Source: Clostridia bacterium (GTDB taxonomy: Bacteria; Bacillota; Clostridia; Christensenellales; Aristaeellaceae). Taken from it: a stretch of DNA of 19,705 bases. Both the position numbers and the translations under genes were made by a program. The stretch's first letter is position 1, and each line of letters opens with the position of its first letter. The notes below the pieces were generated by a model. That model saw nothing but the letters and a program-made list of their open reading frames with translations, was not told the DNA's origin and ran no database searches. Positions 2,190 through 7,870 of this stretch are shown piece after piece. The stretch spans positions 1 to 19,705 of the forward strand of contig JAZRWA010000043.1 in assembly GCA_045599485.1 (NCBI GenBank). The letters are read 5' to 3'.

Positions 2190-3383
2190 TTACGACTCCT
2201 GTGCGGCGACAACGGCGGCGTGCTCGTGCTTGATGCTCTCCAGCAGCGCGGGGTCGAGGATCAGGTCGAGCGCCGTCAGCGCCAATGCTTCACTGCCGGT
2301 CAGAATGGAGCGCAGCCCCATCTCGGAACGGCAGGCTTCGCGCTTTTCAAGGGTGTGACCGGCCAGAGATACTTCACTGATGCGGATCATGGGCTGAATG
2401 ACGGGAATGCACTGGCTGACATTGCCGACATCGGAGGAGCCCAGCGGCGCGTGCTTGGGGTTGTGGTACTCCTCGCCCAGGGAAAGCAGGTTTTTGAGGT
2501 ACACCGCGTCAAAGGAGGGCGTGGGCAGAATGTTATCCACCACGTTCTGCGTCAGCTCCATGAGCCCGGTGCAGCCCGTTTGAAGCGCCGCGCCTTCCAC
2601 GATGTGCTCCAGTTTGCGGTACACCGCCATCATGCGCTTCACATTGGCGGCACGTACATAGAAGCGGCCCTCGGTGTAATCGGGAATGATGTTGGGGGCG
2701 TCTCCGCCTTTGGTGACAATGCCGTGGATGCGTACATCCTGAGGCAGCTGTTGGCGCAGAAGACCGATGGCGTTGAAGACCATGATGAGCGCGTCAAGGG
2801 CGTTGATGCCCTCCTGCGGGTTGGCGGCGGCATGGGAGGCACGGCCTTTGAATTCCACACGGAAGGGGGCACAGGCGATCTCCTCATGCGTCAGCTCATG
2901 CTCGCTGGAGCCGGGATGCACGCACAGGGCGGCATCCACATCCTTGAAAAAGCCCTCGCGAACAAAACTGCCCTTGGCGCTGCCATTTTCGCCGCCCTCC
3001 TCGCCGGGGGTGCCGTACACACGCACTTCGCCGCCAATCTCGTCAATGACCTGCTTGAGGCACACGGCGGCAAGCAGAGAGGTGGCACCGAAAAGGTTGT
3101 GTCCGCAGCCGTGTCCCAGACCGGCCAGGGCATCGTATTCCGCCAGAAAAACCAGCACGGGACCGGGCTTTTGTGCCTTGTAAACAGCAGTGAAGCCGGT
3201 GGGATGACCGGCGACATCGGTCGTTACGGCAAAGCCTTCGGTCTTCAGCTGCTCCGACAGGAGGTTGCAGGCAAAATACTCGTGATTGCTGGTTTCGGGA
3301 TGCGCGTGGAGGTCCAACGCGATCCGGCGATAGACGGGAAATTTTTCTTCAGCGCATTGAAGGATGCGGTCACGCAGCGTCAT
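2190..3383 (-). CDS. M20D-family amidohydrolase/peptidase (AbgB / YxeP / HmrA-like) and last gene of the met operon. The stop is TAA.
   Basis: The 397-aa product has an N-terminal LHAHPETSNHE motif, the metal-ligand region GLGHGCGHN, and GTPGEEGG. ATG 3383 follows AAGGAA with a 9-nt spacer. Confidence 0.85.
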   Translation of the reverse strand: MTLRDRILQCAEEKFPVYRRIALDLHAHPETSNHEYFACNLLSEQLKTEGFAVTTDVAGHPTGFTAVYKAQKPGPVLVFLAEYDALAGLGHGCGHNLFGATSLLAAVCLKQVIDEIGGEVRVYGTPGEEGGENGSAKGSFVREGFFKDVDAALCVHPGSSEHELTHEEIACAPFRVEFKGRASHAAANPQEGINALDALIMVFNAIGLLRQQLPQDVRIHGIVTKGGDAPNIIPDYTEGRFYVRAANVKRMMAVYRKLEHIVEGAALQTGCTGLMELTQNVVDNILPTPSFDAVYLKNLLSLGEEYHNPKHAPLGSSDVGNVSQCIPVIQPMIRISEVSLAGHTLEKREACRSEMGLRSILTGSEALALTALDLILDPALLESIKHEHAAVVAAQES

Positions 3384-3403
3384 GGCAGAGGATTCCTTTC
3401 GTA

Positions 3404-4108
3404 TCAGTGCTTGATGGTGATCAGGCCGCGGTTGGTGGCGCGGCGGCTGAGCAGGTTGCCCAGGGACTGCATGATGAAAACAATGACCAGCAGGATCAGC
3501 ACGCAGGCATCCACGATGTCCTGATGGTTTTGATTCTGACCGTAGTTGATGGCAAAGCTGCCGATACCGCCTGCACCGACGGCACCAGCCATGGTGGTCA
3601 GACCGATGAGGCTGATGGCGGTCACGGTGGTTACACGGATCAGCTCAGGCACGGCTTCGTGCAGATAAACGCGGAAGATGATGCCGAAGGTGCTGCTGCC
3701 CATGCTGCGGGCCGCTTCGATCTTGCCCTCATTGATGCTGCTCAGCGCCACTTCCACCTGACGGGTATAGAAGGGAACACAGCCGAATACCAGGGGAATG
3801 ATGGCGCCCTTGACGCCGATGGCGGTGCCCACGATACTGCGGGTCAGCGGGATGAGGAAGATGAGCAGAATGACGAAGGGAATGGAGCGGAACACGTTGA
3901 TGACAAAGTTGGTGATCTGATAGATGATCATATTCTGGCGGATGCCGCCCTTGCGGAACACCACCAGCATGATGCCAAACAGCAGACCCAGCACAAAGGC
4001 GATGGCGCCCGCCTTGAAGAACATTTCACCGGTGGCCGAAAGGCTGGACCAGAAACGGGTGCGGTAGGCATACAGGTTGGGGGCAATTTGTTTAATGAAG
4101 GCGTCCAT
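3404..4108 (-). CDS. metI: Methionine ABC transporter permease. The stop is TGA.
   Basis: The protein is multi-TM and has the EAA-loop-like segment IEAARSMGSSTFGIIFRVYLHEAVP. The track ORF begins at TTG 4114, but ATG 4108 sits 9 nt after GGAGG (4122-4118), so I chose 4108. The gene overlaps the metN 3' end by 17 nt. Confidence 0.9.
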   Translation of the reverse strand: MDAFIKQIAPNLYAYRTRFWSSLSATGEMFFKAGAIAFVLGLLFGIMLVVFRKGGIRQNMIIYQITNFVINVFRSIPFVILLIFLIPLTRSIVGTAIGVKGAIIPLVFGCVPFYTRQVEVALSSINEGKIEAARSMGSSTFGIIFRVYLHEAVPELIRVTTVTAISLIGLTTMAGAVGAGGIGSFAINYGQNQNHQDIVDACVLILLVIVFIMQSLGNLLSRRATNRGLITIKH

Positions 4109-5165
4109 CGGCAATTTCCTCCGTAATCACATGGTTTTCGGTCAGGTACGCGATGGCGGCGGCGATGTTTTCGGGCGAACCCTCCAGCAGACCGATCATG
4201 CCGCCAAGAGAGGCCCCCTGCAGGATCTCCACATTGGCCAGAACCACGTTGAAATTGATATCAAATTTGCGGGCTGCCATGGTGATGAGCGGCTCGCCGG
4301 CGCAATCCTTGCGGAAGGTGAGACGGACCAGTTTGCCGTGGGAACCGGTGAACTGGGAATCCTCCTTCAGCACCTTGTCGATGCGGCTGAGCGGGGAAGC
4401 GGAGGCCACAAAACGGGCGGCGATGTCGGTTTGCGGATCGGCAAACACATCGTACACTTCGCCTTCTTCCACCACACGGCCTTTTTCCATGACAGCGACA
4501 CGCTGGCAGATGGACTTGATGACCGCCATCTCATGCGTGATGAGCACAATGGTCAAACCAAGCTTGCGGTTCAGATCCTTGAGCAGCGCCAGAATGGCTT
4601 CGGTCGCTTCGGGGTCAAGAGCGCTGGTGGCCTCGTCGGAAAGCAATACCGCTGGGTTGTTGGCCAAAGCGCGGGCGATGGCGACACGCTGCTTCTGACC
4701 GCCGGAGAGCTGGGAAGGATACACATTGATCTTATCGCTCAGACCGACCAGCTCCAGCAGCTCCCGCACACGGGCGGCGATCTGCTTTTTGCTCATGCCG
4801 GTAAATTTGAGGGGATAGGCGACATTATCAAAAACGGTGGAACGATCCAGCAGGTTGAAATGCTGGAAGATCATGCCGATGCCGCGGCGCAGGGTGTTGA
4901 GCTGCTTTTCTCCCATCGGCTTGCCGCCCTGCATGGCGACACCGTTCTTCATGGTGATCTCGGCGTTGCTGCCTACCTTGAGCGTGCCGCTGTCCGGCAC
5001 TTCAAGCAGGTTGATGCAGCGCACCAGGGTGGATTTTCCGGCACCGGAATAACCGATGACACCGTAAATGGTGCCATCGGCAATGCTGACAGACACATCC
5101 TCCAAAGCACGGACATCGCCCGTCTTGAGGTGGAAGGTCTTGTTCATGTTTTTAATCTCGATCAT
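4092..5165 (-). CDS. metN: Methionine ABC transporter ATP-binding protein with a C-terminal NIL domain. The stop is TAA.
   Basis: Motifs present are Walker A GYSGAGKST, signature LSGGQKQRVAIARAL, Walker B VLLSDEATSALD and H-loop ITHEM. The C-terminal ~100 aa are NIL-like (FDINFNVVLANVEILQGASLGGMIGLLEG). A GGAG lies 7 nt before the ATG. Confidence 0.95.
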   Translation of the reverse strand: MIEIKNMNKTFHLKTGDVRALEDVSVSIADGTIYGVIGYSGAGKSTLVRCINLLEVPDSGTLKVGSNAEITMKNGVAMQGGKPMGEKQLNTLRRGIGMIFQHFNLLDRSTVFDNVAYPLKFTGMSKKQIAARVRELLELVGLSDKINVYPSQLSGGQKQRVAIARALANNPAVLLSDEATSALDPEATEAILALLKDLNRKLGLTIVLITHEMAVIKSICQRVAVMEKGRVVEEGEVYDVFADPQTDIAARFVASASPLSRIDKVLKEDSQFTGSHGKLVRLTFRKDCAGEPLITMAARKFDINFNVVLANVEILQGASLGGMIGLLEGSPENIAAAIAYLTENHVITEEIADGRLH

Positions 5166-5226
5166 GCTGTTGCTCCGTCACGATTTCTTGAGTGAGCCCC
5201 TGGGGGAGTGACCCCGCCGGACCCAT

Positions 5227-5262
5227 GAAAAACCGGTGCCGACGGCTTTGTGTCGGCACCGG
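5227..5262 (-). terminator. Intra-operon intrinsic terminator between metQ and metN
   Basis: On the minus strand, CCGGUGCCGAC (5262-5252) pairs with GUCGGCACCGG (5243-5233) over 11 bp around an 8-nt loop. UUUUUC follows (plus gaaaaa, 5227-5232). Confidence 0.8.
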
Positions 5263-5273
5263 CGCGATCAAAA

Positions 5274-6194
5274 TTACTTCATCAGACCGGCGGCATCCTT
5301 GATGGCGTCGATGGAAGCGTAGTTGTTGCTGTACAGGGTCAGGGGGGCGATCAGGGTATCGGCGATGACGGTCAGGTCATAGCCGAAGGAGGCCATTTCC
5401 TTGGCCAGATAGGCCTTGTGCTGGAAAGCGTTCAGGTCCAGATCCTTGGCAACACGGTTGTTCAGGGCGTCGTTGGGCAGGTTGTAGTTGTCCAGCACGA
5501 CCAGCTCGACATAGATGCCGGCATCTTCCTGATCCAGGATCCACTGCACGGCGGCGAACATATCGTTCTTGGTGCCGCACACACCGACCTTGACAACGGT
5601 CTTGCCGGCGGGGGAGGCCACGTTGTAGTAGTAATCCTTCAGCTCAGCCACCTTGGCGGCGTCCACCACCAGGTTGGGATCCGCTTCGTACTCGAAGGCG
5701 GGATAGTAGGCTTCGTTGTACTCCAGCAGCATGAACTCGGCCACCAGCTGGGTGTGGTAGGCGTCAACGATCTTCTGATAGATCTCGTTTTCGGCATCCT
5801 CGGTGCGGGCCACCAGGATGTTGACGTAGGGGTTCTCGCCGCCTTCAGCCTGCTGTTCCACGATCAGACCATCCTTGGAGGGGATCAGGCCCACGGTGGT
5901 GGCCCAGGTGCCGTTGATGACGGCGCCGGCGTAGTCGCGCAGGGTGGAGGTCAGGGTGTTGGCCGCCACGGGAACCACTTCGATATCGTAGATGTAATTG
6001 GTGATGTCCTTGATCTCGGGGTTGTAACCGGCGGCGGGATCGACCTCGATGAAGCCGGCGGTCTCCAGCAGCTTGATGGCGCGGGCGAGGTTGGTGGCGT
6101 CATCGGGCGCGGCGATCTGCAGGGTCTGGGCAGAAGCGGCAGCGGTGCTCAGGATCAGTACCAGAGCCAGGGCAAGGGTCAGAAAACGCTTCAT
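5274..6194 (-). CDS. metQ: MetQ/NlpA-family methionine-binding protein. Its segment order is circularly permuted and its signal peptide is of the type-I kind. The stop is TAA.
   Basis: The 306-aa product starts with MKRFLTLALALVLILSTAAASAQ. Family motifs occur in the order IAAPDDATNLARA (res ~27-39), NPYVNILVAR (121-130), KVGV (202-205), DLNAFQHKAYL (253-263). A GGAG lies 9 nt before ATG 6194. Confidence 0.85.
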   Translation of the reverse strand: MKRFLTLALALVLILSTAAASAQTLQIAAPDDATNLARAIKLLETAGFIEVDPAAGYNPEIKDITNYIYDIEVVPVAANTLTSTLRDYAGAVINGTWATTVGLIPSKDGLIVEQQAEGGENPYVNILVARTEDAENEIYQKIVDAYHTQLVAEFMLLEYNEAYYPAFEYEADPNLVVDAAKVAELKDYYYNVASPAGKTVVKVGVCGTKNDMFAAVQWILDQEDAGIYVELVVLDNYNLPNDALNNRVAKDLDLNAFQHKAYLAKEMASFGYDLTVIADTLIAPLTLYSNNYASIDAIKDAAGLMK

Positions 6195-6218
6195 GATGTT
6201 TTGCTCCTTTAATATGAT

Positions 6219-6302
6219 TTATCGTTTGGGATGCGCGGTGTGAATGACGGAAAACGGGATGCGGCGCATTCGGTCCGTCGCGCGGCCAAAGTGCTGCTTC
6301 AT
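6219..6302 (-). CDS. Leader sORF2, 27 aa: MKQHFGRATDRMRRIPFSVIHTAHPKR. The stop is TAA, 24 nt before the metQ ATG.
   Basis: GAAAGGAGGAAG is present, with GGAGG (6315-6311) placed 8 nt before ATG 6302. The sORF sits between the leader terminator and metQ. I recognise no homology. Confidence 0.4.
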   Translation of the reverse strand: MKQHFGRATDRMRRIPFSVIHTAHPKR

Positions 6303-6322
6303 CGGGTCTTCCTCCTTTCTTT

Positions 6323-6362
6323 CGTAAAAAATAAGGGATCAGCGTGTGCTGTCCCTTATTTC
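6323..6362 (-). terminator. Strong intrinsic terminator (attenuator) inside the met operon leader
   Basis: The minus-strand RNA reads AAAUAAGGGA-CAGC-ACAC-GCUG-A-UCCCUUAUUU followed by UUUAC. That is about a 14-bp stem with one bulged A and a 4-nt loop, running into a run of U. Confidence 0.8.
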
Positions 6363-6377
6363 AGGAATGCCGGGGTT

Positions 6378-6470
6378 TCAGTTCCGGCAGCAGACACACG
6401 GCAAATAACGGCACATGCACATGTACATGCCCCAACGCATCATCTTGCCGGACGCGGTGCGATTGACCAT
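6378..6470 (-). CDS. Leader sORF1, 30 aa: MVNRTASGKMMRWGMYMCMCRYLPCVCCRN (6 Met, 5 Cys). The stop is TGA.
   Basis: GGAAGGAGG (6487-6479) lies 8 nt before ATG 6470, immediately downstream of a sigma-A-type promoter and immediately upstream of the terminator. Codons 15-20 form the tandem hexamer repeat ATGTAC ATGTGC ATGTGC. Confidence 0.55.
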   Translation of the reverse strand: MVNRTASGKMMRWGMYMCMCRYLPCVCCRN

Positions 6471-6503
6471 GATGTCTGCCTCCTTCCGAAATAAGGTAGA
6501 ATT

Positions 6504-6533
6504 ATCTTACCATATGGATGATAGATACGTCAA
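6504..6533 (-). promoter_or_regulatory. Sigma-A-type promoter of the met operon leader
   Basis: On the minus strand: -35 TTGACG (6533-6528), an 18-nt spacer ending in TGg, and -10 TAAGAT (6509-6504). The predicted 5' end near 6497 lies just upstream of the sORF1 SD. Confidence 0.6.
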
Positions 6534-6595
6534 GCATTACGGATGTATTTTGCCTGTTTTTACAAAATATTCGTCTTTCTGTACAGCAAAAACAG

Positions 6596-6625
6596 TTGTG
6601 CCGCTGCCCGGTTCCCTGTTATAAT
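6596..6625 (+). promoter_or_regulatory. Sigma-A-type promoter of the ATP-grasp / MBL gene pair
   Basis: -35 TTGTGC (6596-6601), an 18-nt spacer, and an extended -10 TGtTATAAT (6617-6625). It lies 30 nt upstream of ATG 6656. Confidence 0.6.
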
Positions 6626-6655
6626 GAAAAAAAGCGGTGCAAAAGGAATGACGGT

Positions 6656-7870
6656 ATGAATTTTATTTTTATTTCGCCCCATTTTCCGCGCAGAACGTGG
6701 CAGTTTTGCGAACGGTTGAAGAGAAACGGGGTAACTGTGCTGGGCATCGGCGACGCGCCCTATGACGCGCTGGATCCGAATGTACGGGACAGCCTGAACG
6801 AATACTATTATCTGCCGAGCCTGGAAAACTATGACGCGGTGTACCGGGCGGTGGCGTTCTTTGCGTTCAAATACGGGCGGATCGACTGGATCGAATCCAA
6901 CAACGAGTACTGGCTGTAGCAGGACGCCATGCTTCGAAGTGATTTTAACATTCAAAGCGGTGTGAATGCGAAGGATATCCGCTATTTCAAGAGCAAAGCC
7001 GCCATGAAGGAAAAATATGCTCTGGGACAGATCCCGACCGCCCGCAGCCATGTGATCGAAACGGAAGCGGATACCCGGGAATTTATCACTTCGGTTGGTT
7101 GGCCGGTCATTATCAAACCGGAAAACGGCGTGGGCGCGGCGGACACCTACAAGATCCATAATGAATCGGAGCTGCAGGCGTTTTTTGAAGACCAGCCCGA
7201 GGGGCCCTGCGTGTGCGAGGAGTTCATTGAGGGCGATATCTGCTCCTATGATGCCATCGTGGACAGCCGGGGCGAGCCGCTGTTTGAATCAATGACGGTG
7301 TGGCCGCCTTCCAGTGCCGATATCGTCAACCTCGATCTGGACCTGAGCTATTATGTCAGCCCCACGATGCCGGACAGCCTGCGGACGCTGGGACGGCGTA
7401 CCGTCAAGGCCTTCCATGTGTTCAGCCGCTTCGTTCATCTGGAGTTTTTCAGGTTGACCCATGACCGGGAAGGGCTGGGCAGGCAGGGCGATTTTGTTGC
7501 CCTGGAGGTCAATATGCGCCCCGCGGGCGGCTACACGCCCGATATGATCAACTATGCGCACAGCACCGACGTGTACCGTATCTGGGCGGACATGGTGACC
7601 TTTGATCGCACGGAATGGCAGCCGGCCGACCGGGAATACTGCTGCGCCTACGCGGGGCGAAAGAACAGCAAAAGGTATCTGCTCAGTGATGAGGAAATAT
7701 GGAACCGCTGGGGCGGTAAGATCACAATGTGCGAGGAGATGCCGCCCATGATGGTGCGTACCATGGGCAACAGAATGTACACAGCAAGGCTGGACAGCGT
7801 GGAGGAGGCGCAATGCTTCATCCGCGATGTGCTGAAAACGGAGGGGGACAAGCATGAACCGGAGGAGTAA
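6656..7870 (+). CDS. ATP-grasp domain protein (404 codons) with an in-frame TAG at 6917-6919. The final stop is TAA.
   Basis: Track ORFs 6518-6919 and 6929-7870 share a frame and are separated only by TAG (…IESNNEYWL*QDAMLRSDFNI…). The upstream piece is a pre-ATP-grasp region. The downstream piece is the ATP-grasp fold (WPVIIKPENGVGAADTYKI, EEFIEGDICSYD, ALEVNMRPAGG) and has no SD or start of its own. ATG 6656 was chosen because the TATAAT box lies inside the longer ORF. Confidence 0.8.

What the first reader, a model, noticed from the sequence alone, without database searches (positions are those of the whole stretch)
6303..6533. A Met/Cys-rich leader peptide with terminator and anti-terminator pairings upstream of the methionine transporter operon
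Seen directly, in order on the minus strand: a promoter (TTGACG, 18 nt, TGgTAAGAT); GGAAGGAGG; then a 30-codon ORF MVNRTASGKMMRWGMYMCMCRYLPCVCCRN. That ORF has 6 Met and 5 Cys, so 11 of 30 residues contain sulphur, and includes the tandem repeat ATGTAC ATGTGC ATGTGC. After its TGA, 16 nt further on, comes a strong intrinsic terminator. The very 5' end of the transcript, CCUUAUUUCGG (6496-6486), is complementary to CCUGAAAUAAGG (6365-6354) through 9 Watson-Crick pairs plus one GU and one GC. That second segment is the 5' arm of the terminator. The terminator 3' arm (UCCCUUAUUU, 6338-6329) carries the same CCUUAUUU as the 5' end. The two pairings are therefore mutually exclusive: A:B acts as an anti-terminator and B:C as the terminator. 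A short GC helix, UGCCGG (6389-6384) with CCGGCA (6373-6368), places the sORF stop codon in its loop, about 13 nt upstream of element B. A ribosome reaching the stop would abut B, whereas one stalled at the Met/Cys cluster would leave A:B free. I could not recognise SAM-I (S-box) or T-box core sequences, which are the usual Firmicute controls for met genes. Inference: this is ribosome-mediated attenuation that senses Met and/or Cys tRNA charging. To my knowledge that mechanism has not been described for metNIQ.
Basis: partly seen in the sequence, partly recalled or inferred. Interest (0 to 1): 0.75.

Follow-up and report, generated by a model that had tools for sequence, protein, structure and literature searches.

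The report
Methionine-rich leader peptide attenuator of metQNI
The 5' leader of a gut Clostridia methionine-transporter operon encodes a conserved 30-codon peptide packed with Met and Cys codons, followed by a terminator. It most likely switches the operon on when methionyl-tRNA runs low, a leader-peptide control that is rare in Firmicutes and barely documented for methionine.

Summary

No Rfam family matches the region, even at E<=10.

Twenty-four orthologous metQ leaders from uncultured Christensenellales-like Clostridia keep the same layout:
- a TTGACA-17-TAnnnT promoter and a 24-39 nt 5'UTR (mostly 24-32);
- a strong SD and a 23-42 codon ORF;
- an intrinsic terminator 12-28 nt after the stop.

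Over 20 distinct peptides, Met is 19.8% and Cys 13.7% of residues. ATG triplets number 114 in frame against 5 and 4 out of frame.

Two alternative pairings are conserved with covariation:
- SD/start region with the 3' end of the ORF (1:2);
- 3' end of the ORF with the top and loop of the terminator (2:3).

This is a classical-type leader-peptide attenuator. How a stalled ribosome favours 2:3 is not resolved.

It is not entirely unprecedented. A Met/Cys-rich 'metL' peptide upstream of metNIQ was annotated in Streptomyces lividans.

A second conserved short ORF lies downstream (6302-6219). It has an invariant rare-codon pair CGA-AUG, is more widespread than the first ORF, and is unexplained.

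The parts
6504..6533 (-). Sigma-70-type promoter: TTGACG (6533-6528), 18-nt spacer, extended -10 TGgTAAGAT (-10 hexamer 6509-6504). The inferred transcription start is near 6497.
   Evidence: An equivalent TTGACA-17/18-TAnnnT promoter sits at the same distance from the ORF in 19 of 22 related leaders.
6466..6487 (-). SD GGAAGGAGG (6487-6479) and start codon. Segment 1 (GGCAGACAUCAUGGU, 6480-6466) pairs with the 3' end of the ORF.
   Evidence: For the 1:2 helix, 84% of cells are paired against 22-50% when slid. Cross-locus permutation gives p<5e-5.
6378..6470 (-). sORF1, the leader peptide: 30 codons plus TGA, MVNRTASGKMMRWGMYMCMCRYLPCVCCRN (Met at 1, 10, 11, 15, 17, 19; Cys at 18, 20, 25, 27, 28).
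   Evidence: It is conserved as an ORF in 24 loci. ATG triplets are 114 in frame against 5 and 4 out of frame.
6410..6431 (-). Met-cluster hairpin GGCAUGUACAUGUGCAUGUGCC at the apex of the leader fold. It may act as a pause hairpin (inferred).
   Evidence: 81% of cells are paired and 4 pairs show double changes.
6386..6402 (-). Segment 2: GCCGUGUGUCUGCUGCC (codons 23-29). It pairs either with segment 1 or with the terminator top and loop (segment 3).
6368..6389 (-). Small GC hairpin UGCCGG/CCGGCA with the sORF1 stop codon (6380-6378) in its loop.
   Evidence: It is only weakly conserved (61-70% of cells paired, in a gappy alignment).
6326..6362 (-). Intrinsic terminator GAAAUAAGGGACAGC-ACAC-GCUGAUCCCUUAUUUU plus a U run. 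Segment 3 is GGGACAGCACAC (6355-6344).
   Evidence: -18.9 kcal/mol. 20 of 22 related leaders have a terminator, in all but one starting 12-28 nt after the stop. The loop covaries with segment 2.
6486..6496 (-). Element A (CCUUAUUUCGG) at the 5' end of the transcript. It is complementary to the terminator 5' arm (6365-6354). This is a lineage-specific extra pairing.
   Evidence: -15.4 kcal/mol in the window. It is not conserved.
6219..6302 (-). sORF2: SD AAGGAGG (6317-6311), then MKQHFGRATDRMRRIPFSVIHTAHPKR. It carries the invariant codon pair CGA (6272-6270) and AUG (6269-6267).
   Evidence: It is present in about 50 of 86 loci, including loci without sORF1. No conserved RNA structure was found.
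2190..6194 (-). The regulated operon: metQ (6194-5274), metN (5165-4092), metI (4114-3404) and an M20 peptidase/amidohydrolase (3383-2190).
   Evidence: Pfam hits to Lipoprotein_9, ABC_tran+NIL, BPD_transp_1 and M20. The same gene order is found in relatives.

Best explanation
The region is a ribosome-mediated (leader-peptide) transcription attenuator of the metQ-metN-metI-M20 operon. It reads the supply of charged tRNA-Met, and possibly tRNA-Cys.

Transcription starts near 6497 and a ribosome loads at once on the strong SD of sORF1.

Met plentiful: the ribosome follows the polymerase to the stop codon. There it covers segment 2 (the last ~7 codons), so the terminator (3:4) forms and transcription stops at about 6326.

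Met-tRNA scarce: the ribosome stalls in the Met cluster (codons 10-19), upstream of segment 2. Segment 2 is then free to pair with the upper 5' arm and loop of the terminator (2:3). This blocks hairpin nucleation and lets the polymerase read into sORF2 and metQNI.

No translation: segment 2 is captured by the SD/start region (1:2) and the terminator forms.

Shown: the parts, their conservation, and the covariation of 1:2 and 2:3.

Inferred: the direction of regulation, and how a ribosome stalled between segments 1 and 2 keeps 1:2 from forming. Two possibilities are steric blockage by the ribosome sitting in the would-be loop, or a second ribosome occupying the SD.

In this particular lineage the 5' end of the transcript (A) can additionally pair with the base of the terminator 5' arm.
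For: Anatomy:
- The anatomy in the window is as described.
- The downstream genes are a MetQ/MetN(NIL)/MetI transporter.
- No Rfam family matches in the window or in 40 related loci.

Conservation:
- 24 orthologous leaders, with MetQ 56-66% identical, keep the promoter, the 24-39 nt UTR, the SD, an ORF of 23-42 codons with 4-12 Met and 1-6 Cys, and a terminator 12-28 nt after the stop.
- The peptide sequences themselves diverge freely.
- ORF length varies by whole codons.
- ATG triplets are 114 in frame against 9 out of frame. Met is 19.8% and Cys 13.7% of 575 residues.

Alternative pairings:
- 1:2: 84% of cells paired. Own-locus duplexes average -19.6 kcal/mol against -16.4 for cross-locus pairs, p<5e-5.
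- 2:3: 84% of cells paired, and 0 of 500 shuffles reach the covariation score. Column pair 120:176 is CG in 5 sequences and UA in 5. The own-versus-cross test gives p=0.0016.
- All cluster Met codons lie upstream of segment 2.

Precedents:
- S. lividans metL upstream of metNIQ (PMC8079986).
- Cys-rich sensory sORFs in mycobacteria (bioRxiv 10.1101/834739).
- Leader peptides in Firmicutes are known but rare (PMC2965389).
Against: - There are no expression data.
- The regulatory codons lie between segments 1 and 2, not on segment 1 as in the trp, his and leu leaders.
- Equilibrium folding with ribosome footprints does not distinguish a ribosome stalled at the Met codons from one at the stop.
- The terminator fold is always the more stable one, by 3-20 kcal/mol. 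Only occupying the SD/start region shifts the balance, by about 3.8 kcal/mol. The switch must therefore be kinetic, and its logic is inferred.
- Part of the Cys enrichment, and the GCAUGYGC repeats, can be explained by RNA pairing needs.
- In one relative (L088) sORF1 has lost its stop codon and reads through the terminator.
- One AT-rich relative (L041) has no clear terminator.
Confidence: 0.7

Rival explanations
1. The anti-terminator is the pairing of the transcript's 5' end (A, 6496-6486) with the terminator 5' arm (B, 6365-6354), stacked on the SD:ORF-end helix. A ribosome at the stop codon breaks that long helix so the terminator wins. A ribosome stalled at the apex leaves the helix intact.
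For: - A:B is -15.4 kcal/mol in the window and ranks first among all cross-locus partners.
- In the truncated transcript the minimum-free-energy fold pairs the terminator 5' arm with the 5' UTR. This holds in the window, L001, L009, L017, L018, L022 and L025, and weakly in L005.
- A:B is coaxial with the conserved 1:2 helix.
Against: - A:B is not conserved. 47% of cells pair, equal to the shuffled and slid controls, and the permutation test gives p=0.12.
- It is absent in L004, L011, L024, L035, L065 and L076, which still have the ORF and terminator.
- In equilibrium A:B persists whether the ribosome is stalled or at the stop, so it does not discriminate by itself.
- It would make 1:2 an anti-terminator, the opposite of its role in the 2:3 model.
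Confidence: 0.2
2. The leader is a ligand-binding riboswitch of an undescribed class (for SAM, Met or a related sulphur compound). The open reading frame is a by-product of AUG/UGC-rich helices.
For: - The leader is strongly structured (z = -5.1).
- Several helices are conserved with some covariation.
- met transporters in Firmicutes are usually under S-box or T-box control (established knowledge).
Against: - There is no Rfam hit, even at E<=10.
- The SD and start codon sit at a fixed short distance from the promoter in all loci.
- The frame stays open despite indels, and 114 of 123 ATG triplets are in that frame.
- The number and arrangement of Met codons vary greatly: 7 consecutive AUG in L017, MMGMMMRM in L004 and MCMC repeats elsewhere. 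This is the opposite of a conserved ligand pocket.
- Outside the helices there are no conserved unpaired nucleotides.
Confidence: 0.07
3. sORF1 encodes a functional small Met/Cys-rich protein (for example a metal- or redox-active peptide, or a modified-peptide precursor). It merely shares a promoter with metQ.
For: Cys/Met-rich short peptides can bind soft metals or be RiPP precursors (general knowledge). The ORF has a strong SD and is conserved as an ORF.
Against: - Only composition is conserved, not sequence (mean column identity 44%, and only M1 and M15 invariant).
- A terminator always separates it from metQ.
- The ORF's 3' end is locked into pairings with the SD and with the terminator.
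- No maturase, radical-SAM or metal-handling gene is nearby.
- Pfam gives no hit.
Confidence: 0.05

Closest known systems
Classical leader-peptide transcription attenuators (trpL, hisL, leuL, thrL, pheL, ilv leaders of Proteobacteria; trp/ilv/leu leaders of Actinobacteria; the His leader of hisS/hisZ in bacilli)
   Same: - A short SD-led ORF at the 5' end of the mRNA, enriched in codons of the cognate amino acid.
- An intrinsic terminator before the structural genes.
- Three overlapping pairings, 1:2, 2:3 and 3:4.
- A stop codon placed so that a terminating ribosome covers segment 2.
   Different: - The sensed amino acid is Met (plus Cys), which the classic comparative surveys do not report (PMC1262725 found no met element).
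- The host is an uncultured Clostridia lineage. Leader peptides are rare in Firmicutes (PMC2965389).
- Segment 1 is the SD/start region itself, and the regulatory codons sit between segments 1 and 2 rather than on segment 1.
- The operon is a transporter, not a biosynthetic operon.
Streptomyces lividans TK24 'metL' leader peptide upstream of metNIQ (Droste et al. 2021, PMC8079986)
   Same: - The same regulated operon type (MetNIQ importer).
- A peptide of about 29 aa whose C-terminal part is Arg/Met/Cys-rich (…GARCMCRRMCAF). This resembles CMCR, RMC and MCMC in the present family.
   Different: - The Streptomyces transcript is leaderless, and no rho-independent terminator was found.
- It was reported only as an annotation, from one genome, without comparative or functional tests.
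- Homology to the present family was not tested here, because no Streptomyces sequence was available.
Polycysteine leaderless sORF attenuators of mycobacteria (Canestrari et al., bioRxiv 10.1101/834739; predicted earlier in PMC1262725)
   Same: Sulphur-amino-acid sensing through ribosome stalling on a codon run in a short upstream ORF, where the stalled ribosome prevents an inhibitory RNA duplex.
   Different: - Those elements are leaderless and Cys-only.
- They act on translation by unmasking the downstream ribosome-binding site.
- They have no intrinsic terminator.
S-box (SAM-I) riboswitch and Met T-box leaders of Firmicute met genes
   Same: They occupy the same regulatory niche, premature termination in the leader of methionine uptake and biosynthesis operons. 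The read-out is sulphur amino-acid status.
   Different: Those elements sense SAM or uncharged tRNA-Met directly by RNA and have conserved cores. No such core is present here (Rfam negative).

Membership tests
Leader-peptide (ribosome-mediated) transcription attenuator | A short ORF with its own ribosome-binding site as the first translated element of the transcript. | tested here: met
   The SD GGAAGGAGG lies 8 nt before the ATG, and the inferred 5' UTR is 27 nt. The same holds in 19 of 22 relatives that have a recognisable promoter.
Leader-peptide (ribosome-mediated) transcription attenuator | The ORF is enriched in codons for the amino acid relevant to the regulated genes, and the enrichment is conserved while the rest of the peptide drifts. 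| tested here: met
   Met is 19.8% and Cys 13.7% over 20 distinct peptides. ATG triplets are 114 in frame against 5 and 4 out of frame. Peptide column identity is 44%. The operon is metQNI.
Leader-peptide (ribosome-mediated) transcription attenuator | An intrinsic terminator between the leader ORF and the structural genes. | tested here: met
   -18.9 kcal/mol hairpin plus a U run, starting 15 nt after the stop. 20 of 22 relatives have one.
Leader-peptide (ribosome-mediated) transcription attenuator | Mutually exclusive pairings 1:2, 2:3 and 3:4, supported by conservation or covariation. | tested here: met
   1:2: 84% of cells paired, p<5e-5. 2:3: 84% of cells paired, 0 of 500 shuffles, p=0.0016. 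3:4: own -20.2 against cross -10.0 kcal/mol.
Leader-peptide (ribosome-mediated) transcription attenuator | A ribosome stalled at the regulatory codons masks segment 1, so that the anti-terminator forms. | tested here: inconclusive
   The Met cluster lies between segments 1 and 2. Footprint-masked folding shows no difference between stall and stop. Only masking the SD/start region favours 2:3, by about 3.8 kcal/mol.
Leader-peptide (ribosome-mediated) transcription attenuator | Read-through responds to charging of the cognate tRNA and needs translation of the leader ORF. | not testable with these tools
   This needs Term-seq, reporter or in vitro coupled assays.
SAM riboswitches (SAM-I/S-box, SAM-II to VI, SAM/SAH) and T-box leaders | A match to the family covariance model (conserved core sequence and structure). 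| tested here: not met
   There were 0 hits at gathering thresholds in the window and in 40 related loci. In 6100-6750 at E<=10 the only hit is a spurious miRNA match.
Actinobacterial leaderless Cys/Met sensory sORFs (mycobacterial Cys attenuators, S. lividans metL) | A leaderless transcript starting at the sORF start codon. | tested here: not met
   The promoter geometry gives a 24-39 nt UTR containing a strong SD.
Actinobacterial leaderless Cys/Met sensory sORFs (mycobacterial Cys attenuators, S. lividans metL) | Control without an intrinsic terminator (RBS sequestration or Rho). | tested here: not met
   For sORF1 a canonical terminator is present and conserved. This feature may instead apply to sORF2, which was not resolved.
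Metabolite- or starvation-sensing arrest/sensor uORFs (TnaC-like), considered for sORF2 | A conserved peptide or codon context at a fixed stall site near the stop, followed by an untranslated C-rich spacer before the regulated gene. | tested here: inconclusive
   - The motif G[GR]xx[DSNE]-R(CGA)-M, followed by a stop or by UGY/UGG, occurs in about 30 distinct versions.
- CGA is invariant, although it is 0 of 54 Arg codons in the operon genes.
- No conserved RNA structure was found.
- The spacer has C:G = 433:309.
- Stalling itself is untested.

The most novel reading that the evidence does not exclude
The leader is a two-stage translational sensor. Its more widespread part is sORF2, not the Met-rich sORF1.

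sORF2 is a 12-30 codon ORF with a conserved peptide context (…G-G/R-x-x-D/S/N) that ends in an invariant rare-codon pair, CGA-AUG, usually followed by a stop.

The reading is that sORF2 is a new kind of minimal methionine sensor. The inosine-decoded CGA in the P site, together with the nascent peptide, makes decoding of a single AUG (or release after it) acutely dependent on Met-tRNA, or on Met or SAM. The stalled ribosome then controls metQ through the C-rich spacer, either by Rho access or by RBS access.

sORF2 occurs alone in front of metQ in many loci that have no sORF1 and no terminator.
Probability: 0.25. Interest if true: 0.8.

Novelty: new member of a known kind. Interest (0 to 1): 0.6.

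Why it matters
Methionine genes in Firmicutes are textbook examples of RNA-only sensing (S-box, T-box). Here a whole clade of gut Clostridia (Christensenellales-like MAGs from human, horse, rumen and bioreactor samples) appears to use a translated Met/Cys-rich leader peptide instead.

This would extend leader-peptide attenuation to an amino acid and a phylum where it is almost undocumented. It would also link up with a single, untested 'metL' annotation in Streptomyces.

The conserved 1:2, 2:3 and 3:4 pairings give directly testable mutations.

The architecture is unusual: the SD serves as segment 1 and the regulatory codons sit at the apex of the hairpin. It poses a clear mechanistic question about how a ribosome stalled inside a loop controls long-range RNA pairing.

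The second ORF, with its invariant CGA-AUG pair, is a candidate for a new minimal sensory uORF.

In practice, these unannotated ORFs should be annotated as regulatory leaders rather than as hypothetical proteins or empty intergenic DNA.

Tried and rejected
- Known RNA families. I ran Rfam at gathering thresholds on the window and 40 loci, and at E<=10 on 6100-6750. There were no hits except a spurious mir-7386 match to a small hairpin at 6546-6569.
- The A:B anti-terminator as a family feature. It is rejected.
- Spacer, or Met-cluster region, pairing with the terminator as the anti-terminator. Own-locus pairs show no excess over cross-locus pairs (p=0.63 and 0.59).
- Equilibrium folding with ribosome footprints to show the switch. 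It does not discriminate, and the terminator fold is always the more stable.
- sORF2 as an RNA motif. RNAalifold on 18 diverse copies predicts 0 pairs. CGAAUG is not preferentially unpaired (0.46 against a background of 0.50).
- sORF2 as a read-through extension of sORF1. Its frame relative to sORF1 is 0, 1 or 2 in different loci.
- Searching the protein database with the leader-peptide alignment.
- Exact look-up of the window's MetQ. It is not on record.
- The genome-contig scan with MetQ. It returned only one close relative (L001) and two irrelevant loci.
- Met count alone as a statistic. Antisense frames of GC-rich genes also give Met-rich ORFs: 118 of 3274 ORFs have at least 4 internal Met. 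I therefore used frame bias, position and conservation instead.
- Literature. Eight full-text searches found no Met leader-peptide attenuator in Firmicutes.
Full report
**1. What is in the window**

On the minus strand the intergenic region between metQ (6194-5274) and a divergent ATP-grasp gene holds the following features.
- A promoter: TTGACG at 6533-6528, an 18-nt spacer and TG-g-TAAGAT with the -10 hexamer at 6509-6504. It is the only promoter-like site in 5000-7500.
- A strong SD, GGAAGGAGG (6487-6479).
- A 30-codon ORF at 6470-6378, MVNRTASGKMMRWGMYMCMCRYLPCVCCRN.
- A -18.9 kcal/mol hairpin followed by a U run, starting 15-16 nt after the TGA.

The leader folds much better than shuffles (z = -5.1).

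The downstream genes are MetQ (NlpA lipoprotein family), MetN (ABC plus NIL domain), MetI and an M20 peptidase.

**2. Not a known RNA element**

Rfam 15 gives no hit at gathering thresholds in the window or in 40 related loci. At E<=10 in 6100-6750 it gives nothing but a spurious miRNA match to a small hairpin.

**3. Relatives**

One 95%-identical locus came from a horse-faeces Clostridia MAG (L001). MetQ homologues at 56-66% identity are abundant. I fetched their loci by exact look-up and by a metagenome scan with a MetQ alignment.

Twenty-four of these loci carry the same leader. Twenty-two were analysed in detail. L088 (Candidatus Ventricola) and L089 (Christensenellaceae) add two more. The shared features are:
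- a near-consensus TTGACA-17-TAnnnT promoter that gives a 24-39 nt UTR, mostly 24-32 nt;
- a strong SD;
- an ORF of 23-42 codons with 4-12 Met and 1-6 Cys;
- a stop codon;
- an intrinsic terminator, present in 20 of 22 and in all but one starting 12-28 nt after the stop.

Examples of the peptides are MRTIMTGVMMGMMMRMYMRCYSLCVCRR, MVNRSVMMMMMMMRGMRMCMTDFLPCVCMGG, MAYQARGMMMCMGMCMSMCSCFPCACRR and MTNRMTMEMCRHQMCRCLPCGSA.

The peptide sequence itself drifts (44% column identity), but the composition is held. Over 575 non-initiator residues Met is 19.8%, Cys 13.7% and Arg 12.7%. ATG triplets are 114 in frame against 5 and 4 in the other frames.

Met-rich ORFs do occur by chance in antisense frames of GC-rich genes. 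The evidence therefore rests on frame, position and conservation, not on composition alone.

**4. Alternative pairings**

I tested pairings in two ways. The first asked whether each locus's own partner segments pair better than partners taken from other loci, using a permutation test. The second counted pairs on a 12-sequence alignment (A2). The results were as follows.

- Segment 1 (SD to start) with segment 2 (last ~7 codons). Own-locus duplexes average -19.6 kcal/mol against -16.4 for cross-locus pairs, p<5e-5. 84% of cells pair, against 22-50% when slid. Divergent loci show clear compensatory versions, such as GGCUGGGC:GCCCAGC in L022 and CUGGUUUCAUGA:UCGUGAAUCCAG in L024.
- Segment 2 with segment 3 (upper 5' arm plus loop of the terminator). 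Own -15.2 against cross -13.4 kcal/mol, p=0.0016. 84% of cells pair, and 0 of 500 shuffles reach the covariation score. Column pair 120:176 is CG in 5 sequences and UA in 5. In effect the terminator loop (ACAC, GCACG or GCAUG) tracks the codons CCGUGUG, ACGUGCG or CCAUGCG.
- The terminator itself (3:4). Own -20.2 against cross -10.0 kcal/mol.
The permutation test gives p=0.12, and 47% of cells pair, equal to the controls.
- Spacer or Met-cluster region against the terminator. No excess over cross-locus pairs.
- The Met-cluster hairpin. 81% of cells pair.
- The stop-codon hairpin. Only weakly conserved.

**5. Mechanism**

The parts fit a classical 1:2 / 2:3 / 3:4 attenuator.
- A ribosome that reaches the stop covers segment 2, so the terminator forms.
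- With no translation, the SD/start region captures segment 2, so the terminator also forms.
- A ribosome stalled on the Met cluster, which is always upstream of segment 2, should leave segment 2 free for segment 3, giving read-through.

The weak point is that the regulatory codons lie between segments 1 and 2.

Footprint-masked equilibrium folding does not distinguish stall from stop. The terminator fold is always more stable than the alternative. Only occupation of the SD/start region shifts the balance, by about 3.8 kcal/mol on average.

The switch must therefore be kinetic. Either the stalled 70S in the would-be loop hinders closure of 1:2, or a following ribosome occupies the SD. This step is inference.

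The late Cys codons (25, 27, 28) lie inside segment 2 and are at least partly structural. Met is the consistent signal.

In this window and in L001 the extra A:B pairing could reinforce anti-termination, but that is a lineage-specific feature.

**6. Comparison with what is known**

The system works like the trp, his and leu leader-peptide attenuators and meets their structural criteria (see the membership table).

Eight full-text literature searches found no Met leader peptide in Firmicutes. The relevant papers are these.
- Naville & Gautheret noted that leader peptides were essentially unknown outside Proteobacteria and Actinobacteria until a His leader was found in bacilli (PMC2965389).
- Seliverstov et al. 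found no met element in Actinobacteria, but did find Cys leader peptides (PMC1262725).
- The Cys leader peptides were later shown to be Cys-responsive translational attenuators in mycobacteria (10.1101/834739).
- Droste et al. annotated 'metL', MSTTSDRTPATEATTTPGARCMCRRMCAF, upstream of metNIQ in S. lividans. It is leaderless, has no clear terminator and is untested (PMC8079986).

I file this as a new member of a known kind. It is a well-supported, terminator-based, SD-led Met/Cys leader-peptide family in Clostridia.

**7. Second ORF**

Directly after the terminator comes a second SD-led ORF, sORF2 (6302-6219, MKQHFGRATDRMRR…).

It is present in about 50 of 86 loci. These include many loci where a promoter is followed by sORF2 and metQ with no sORF1 and no terminator, for example MLFHPGGSRSRMC*.

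About 30 distinct versions share the motif …G-[GR]-x-x-[DSNE]-R-M, followed by a stop (mostly UGA) or by UGC, UGG or CGN.
- Flanking codons vary synonymously: ACG/ACC/ACA, GAC/GAT and GCG/GCC.
- The start-to-RM distance is 10-12 codons in most versions, or 17-19 in a few.
- The Arg codon is always CGA. No version with another Arg codon was found. Yet CGA is 0 of 54 Arg codons in the window's metQ, metN, metI and M20 genes.

Several observations argue against an RNA-level or read-through explanation.
- RNAalifold finds no consensus structure.
- CGAAUG is not preferentially unpaired.
- The frame of sORF2 relative to sORF1 is random.

The spacer to metQ is C-rich relative to G (433:309, against 836:970 in the sORF1 leaders).

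I could not establish what sORF2 does. My speculative reading is a sensitised single-Met-codon sensor or an arrest peptide. That idea rests on my own knowledge of inosine-decoded CGA inhibitory codon pairs in yeast. It acts on metQ through Rho or through RBS access.

**8. Verdict**

The general interpretation is supported by strong comparative evidence. The specific anti-terminator is revised, and novelty is moderate. Expression experiments are needed to establish the direction and the signal.

Noticed in passing
window 6219-6302 (-); also L012, L020, L038, L054, L021, L008, L027 and others: There is a second conserved SD-led short ORF (sORF2) with the motif …G[GR]xx[DSNE]-R-M. The Arg codon is always the rare CGA, and it is usually followed by a stop or by UGY/UGG. 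sORF2 is found in about 50 of 86 metQ loci, including many that have no sORF1 or terminator. No conserved RNA structure explains it.
   Followed up: partly
window 6270-6272 compared with genes at 2190-6194: CGA is used for 0 of 54 Arg codons in metQ, metN, metI and the M20 gene (CGC 33, CGT 19, CGG 2). It is nevertheless invariant before the Met codon of sORF2. The CGA-AUG pair also occurs inside several divergent sORF1 peptides (L015, L056, L068, L086).
   Followed up: partly
L088 590-830 (Candidatus Ventricola sp., GCA_051886775.1): In this relative the usual sORF1 stop codon is CGG. The ORF therefore reads through the terminator and runs in frame into sORF2 (…CSRARVGAAHLPETGAAHAAPLFFGRKGWSLMRRKLPIRATDRM*). 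This may be a decayed attenuator, an altered one, or an assembly error.
   Followed up: no
window 5232-5263 (-): A strong terminator-like hairpin (12 bp, 9 of them GC, followed by TTTTT) lies between metQ and metN. This is the usual way to over-express the binding protein relative to the permease and ATPase.
   Followed up: no
window about 6541-6569 (-), upstream of the -35: An A-rich stretch, CAAAATACAT, sits just upstream of the -35 hexamer. It recurs in L001, L004, L009 and L017 and, more loosely, in L006 and L011, so it could be an UP element or an operator. The adjacent small hairpin UAUUUUGUAAAAACAGGCAAAAUA gave the spurious mir-7386 hit.
   Followed up: no
L005, L006, L007, L021, L030, L090: Many relatives have two met transporter gene sets in tandem (metN-metI-metQ1, then metQ2-metN-metI-M20). 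The leader, or only sORF2, or nothing, lies between metQ1 and metQ2. L090 keeps only a GGAGCAGCACACGG remnant that resembles the terminator arm.
   Followed up: no
window 6303-6503 (-): In the full-length minimum-free-energy fold the terminator forms, and the 5' end of the transcript (ACCUUAUUUCG) pairs with the sORF2 SD region (CGAAAGAAAGGAGG, about 6324-6311). This could couple the state of the first attenuator to translation of sORF2.
   Followed up: no
L041, L044, L045: An AT-rich relative has a Met/Cys-rich leader ORF (MANRKLICNTVNMMCSSSMMMPCWA). It has no recognisable sigma-70 promoter match, no clear intrinsic terminator and no sORF2.
   Followed up: no
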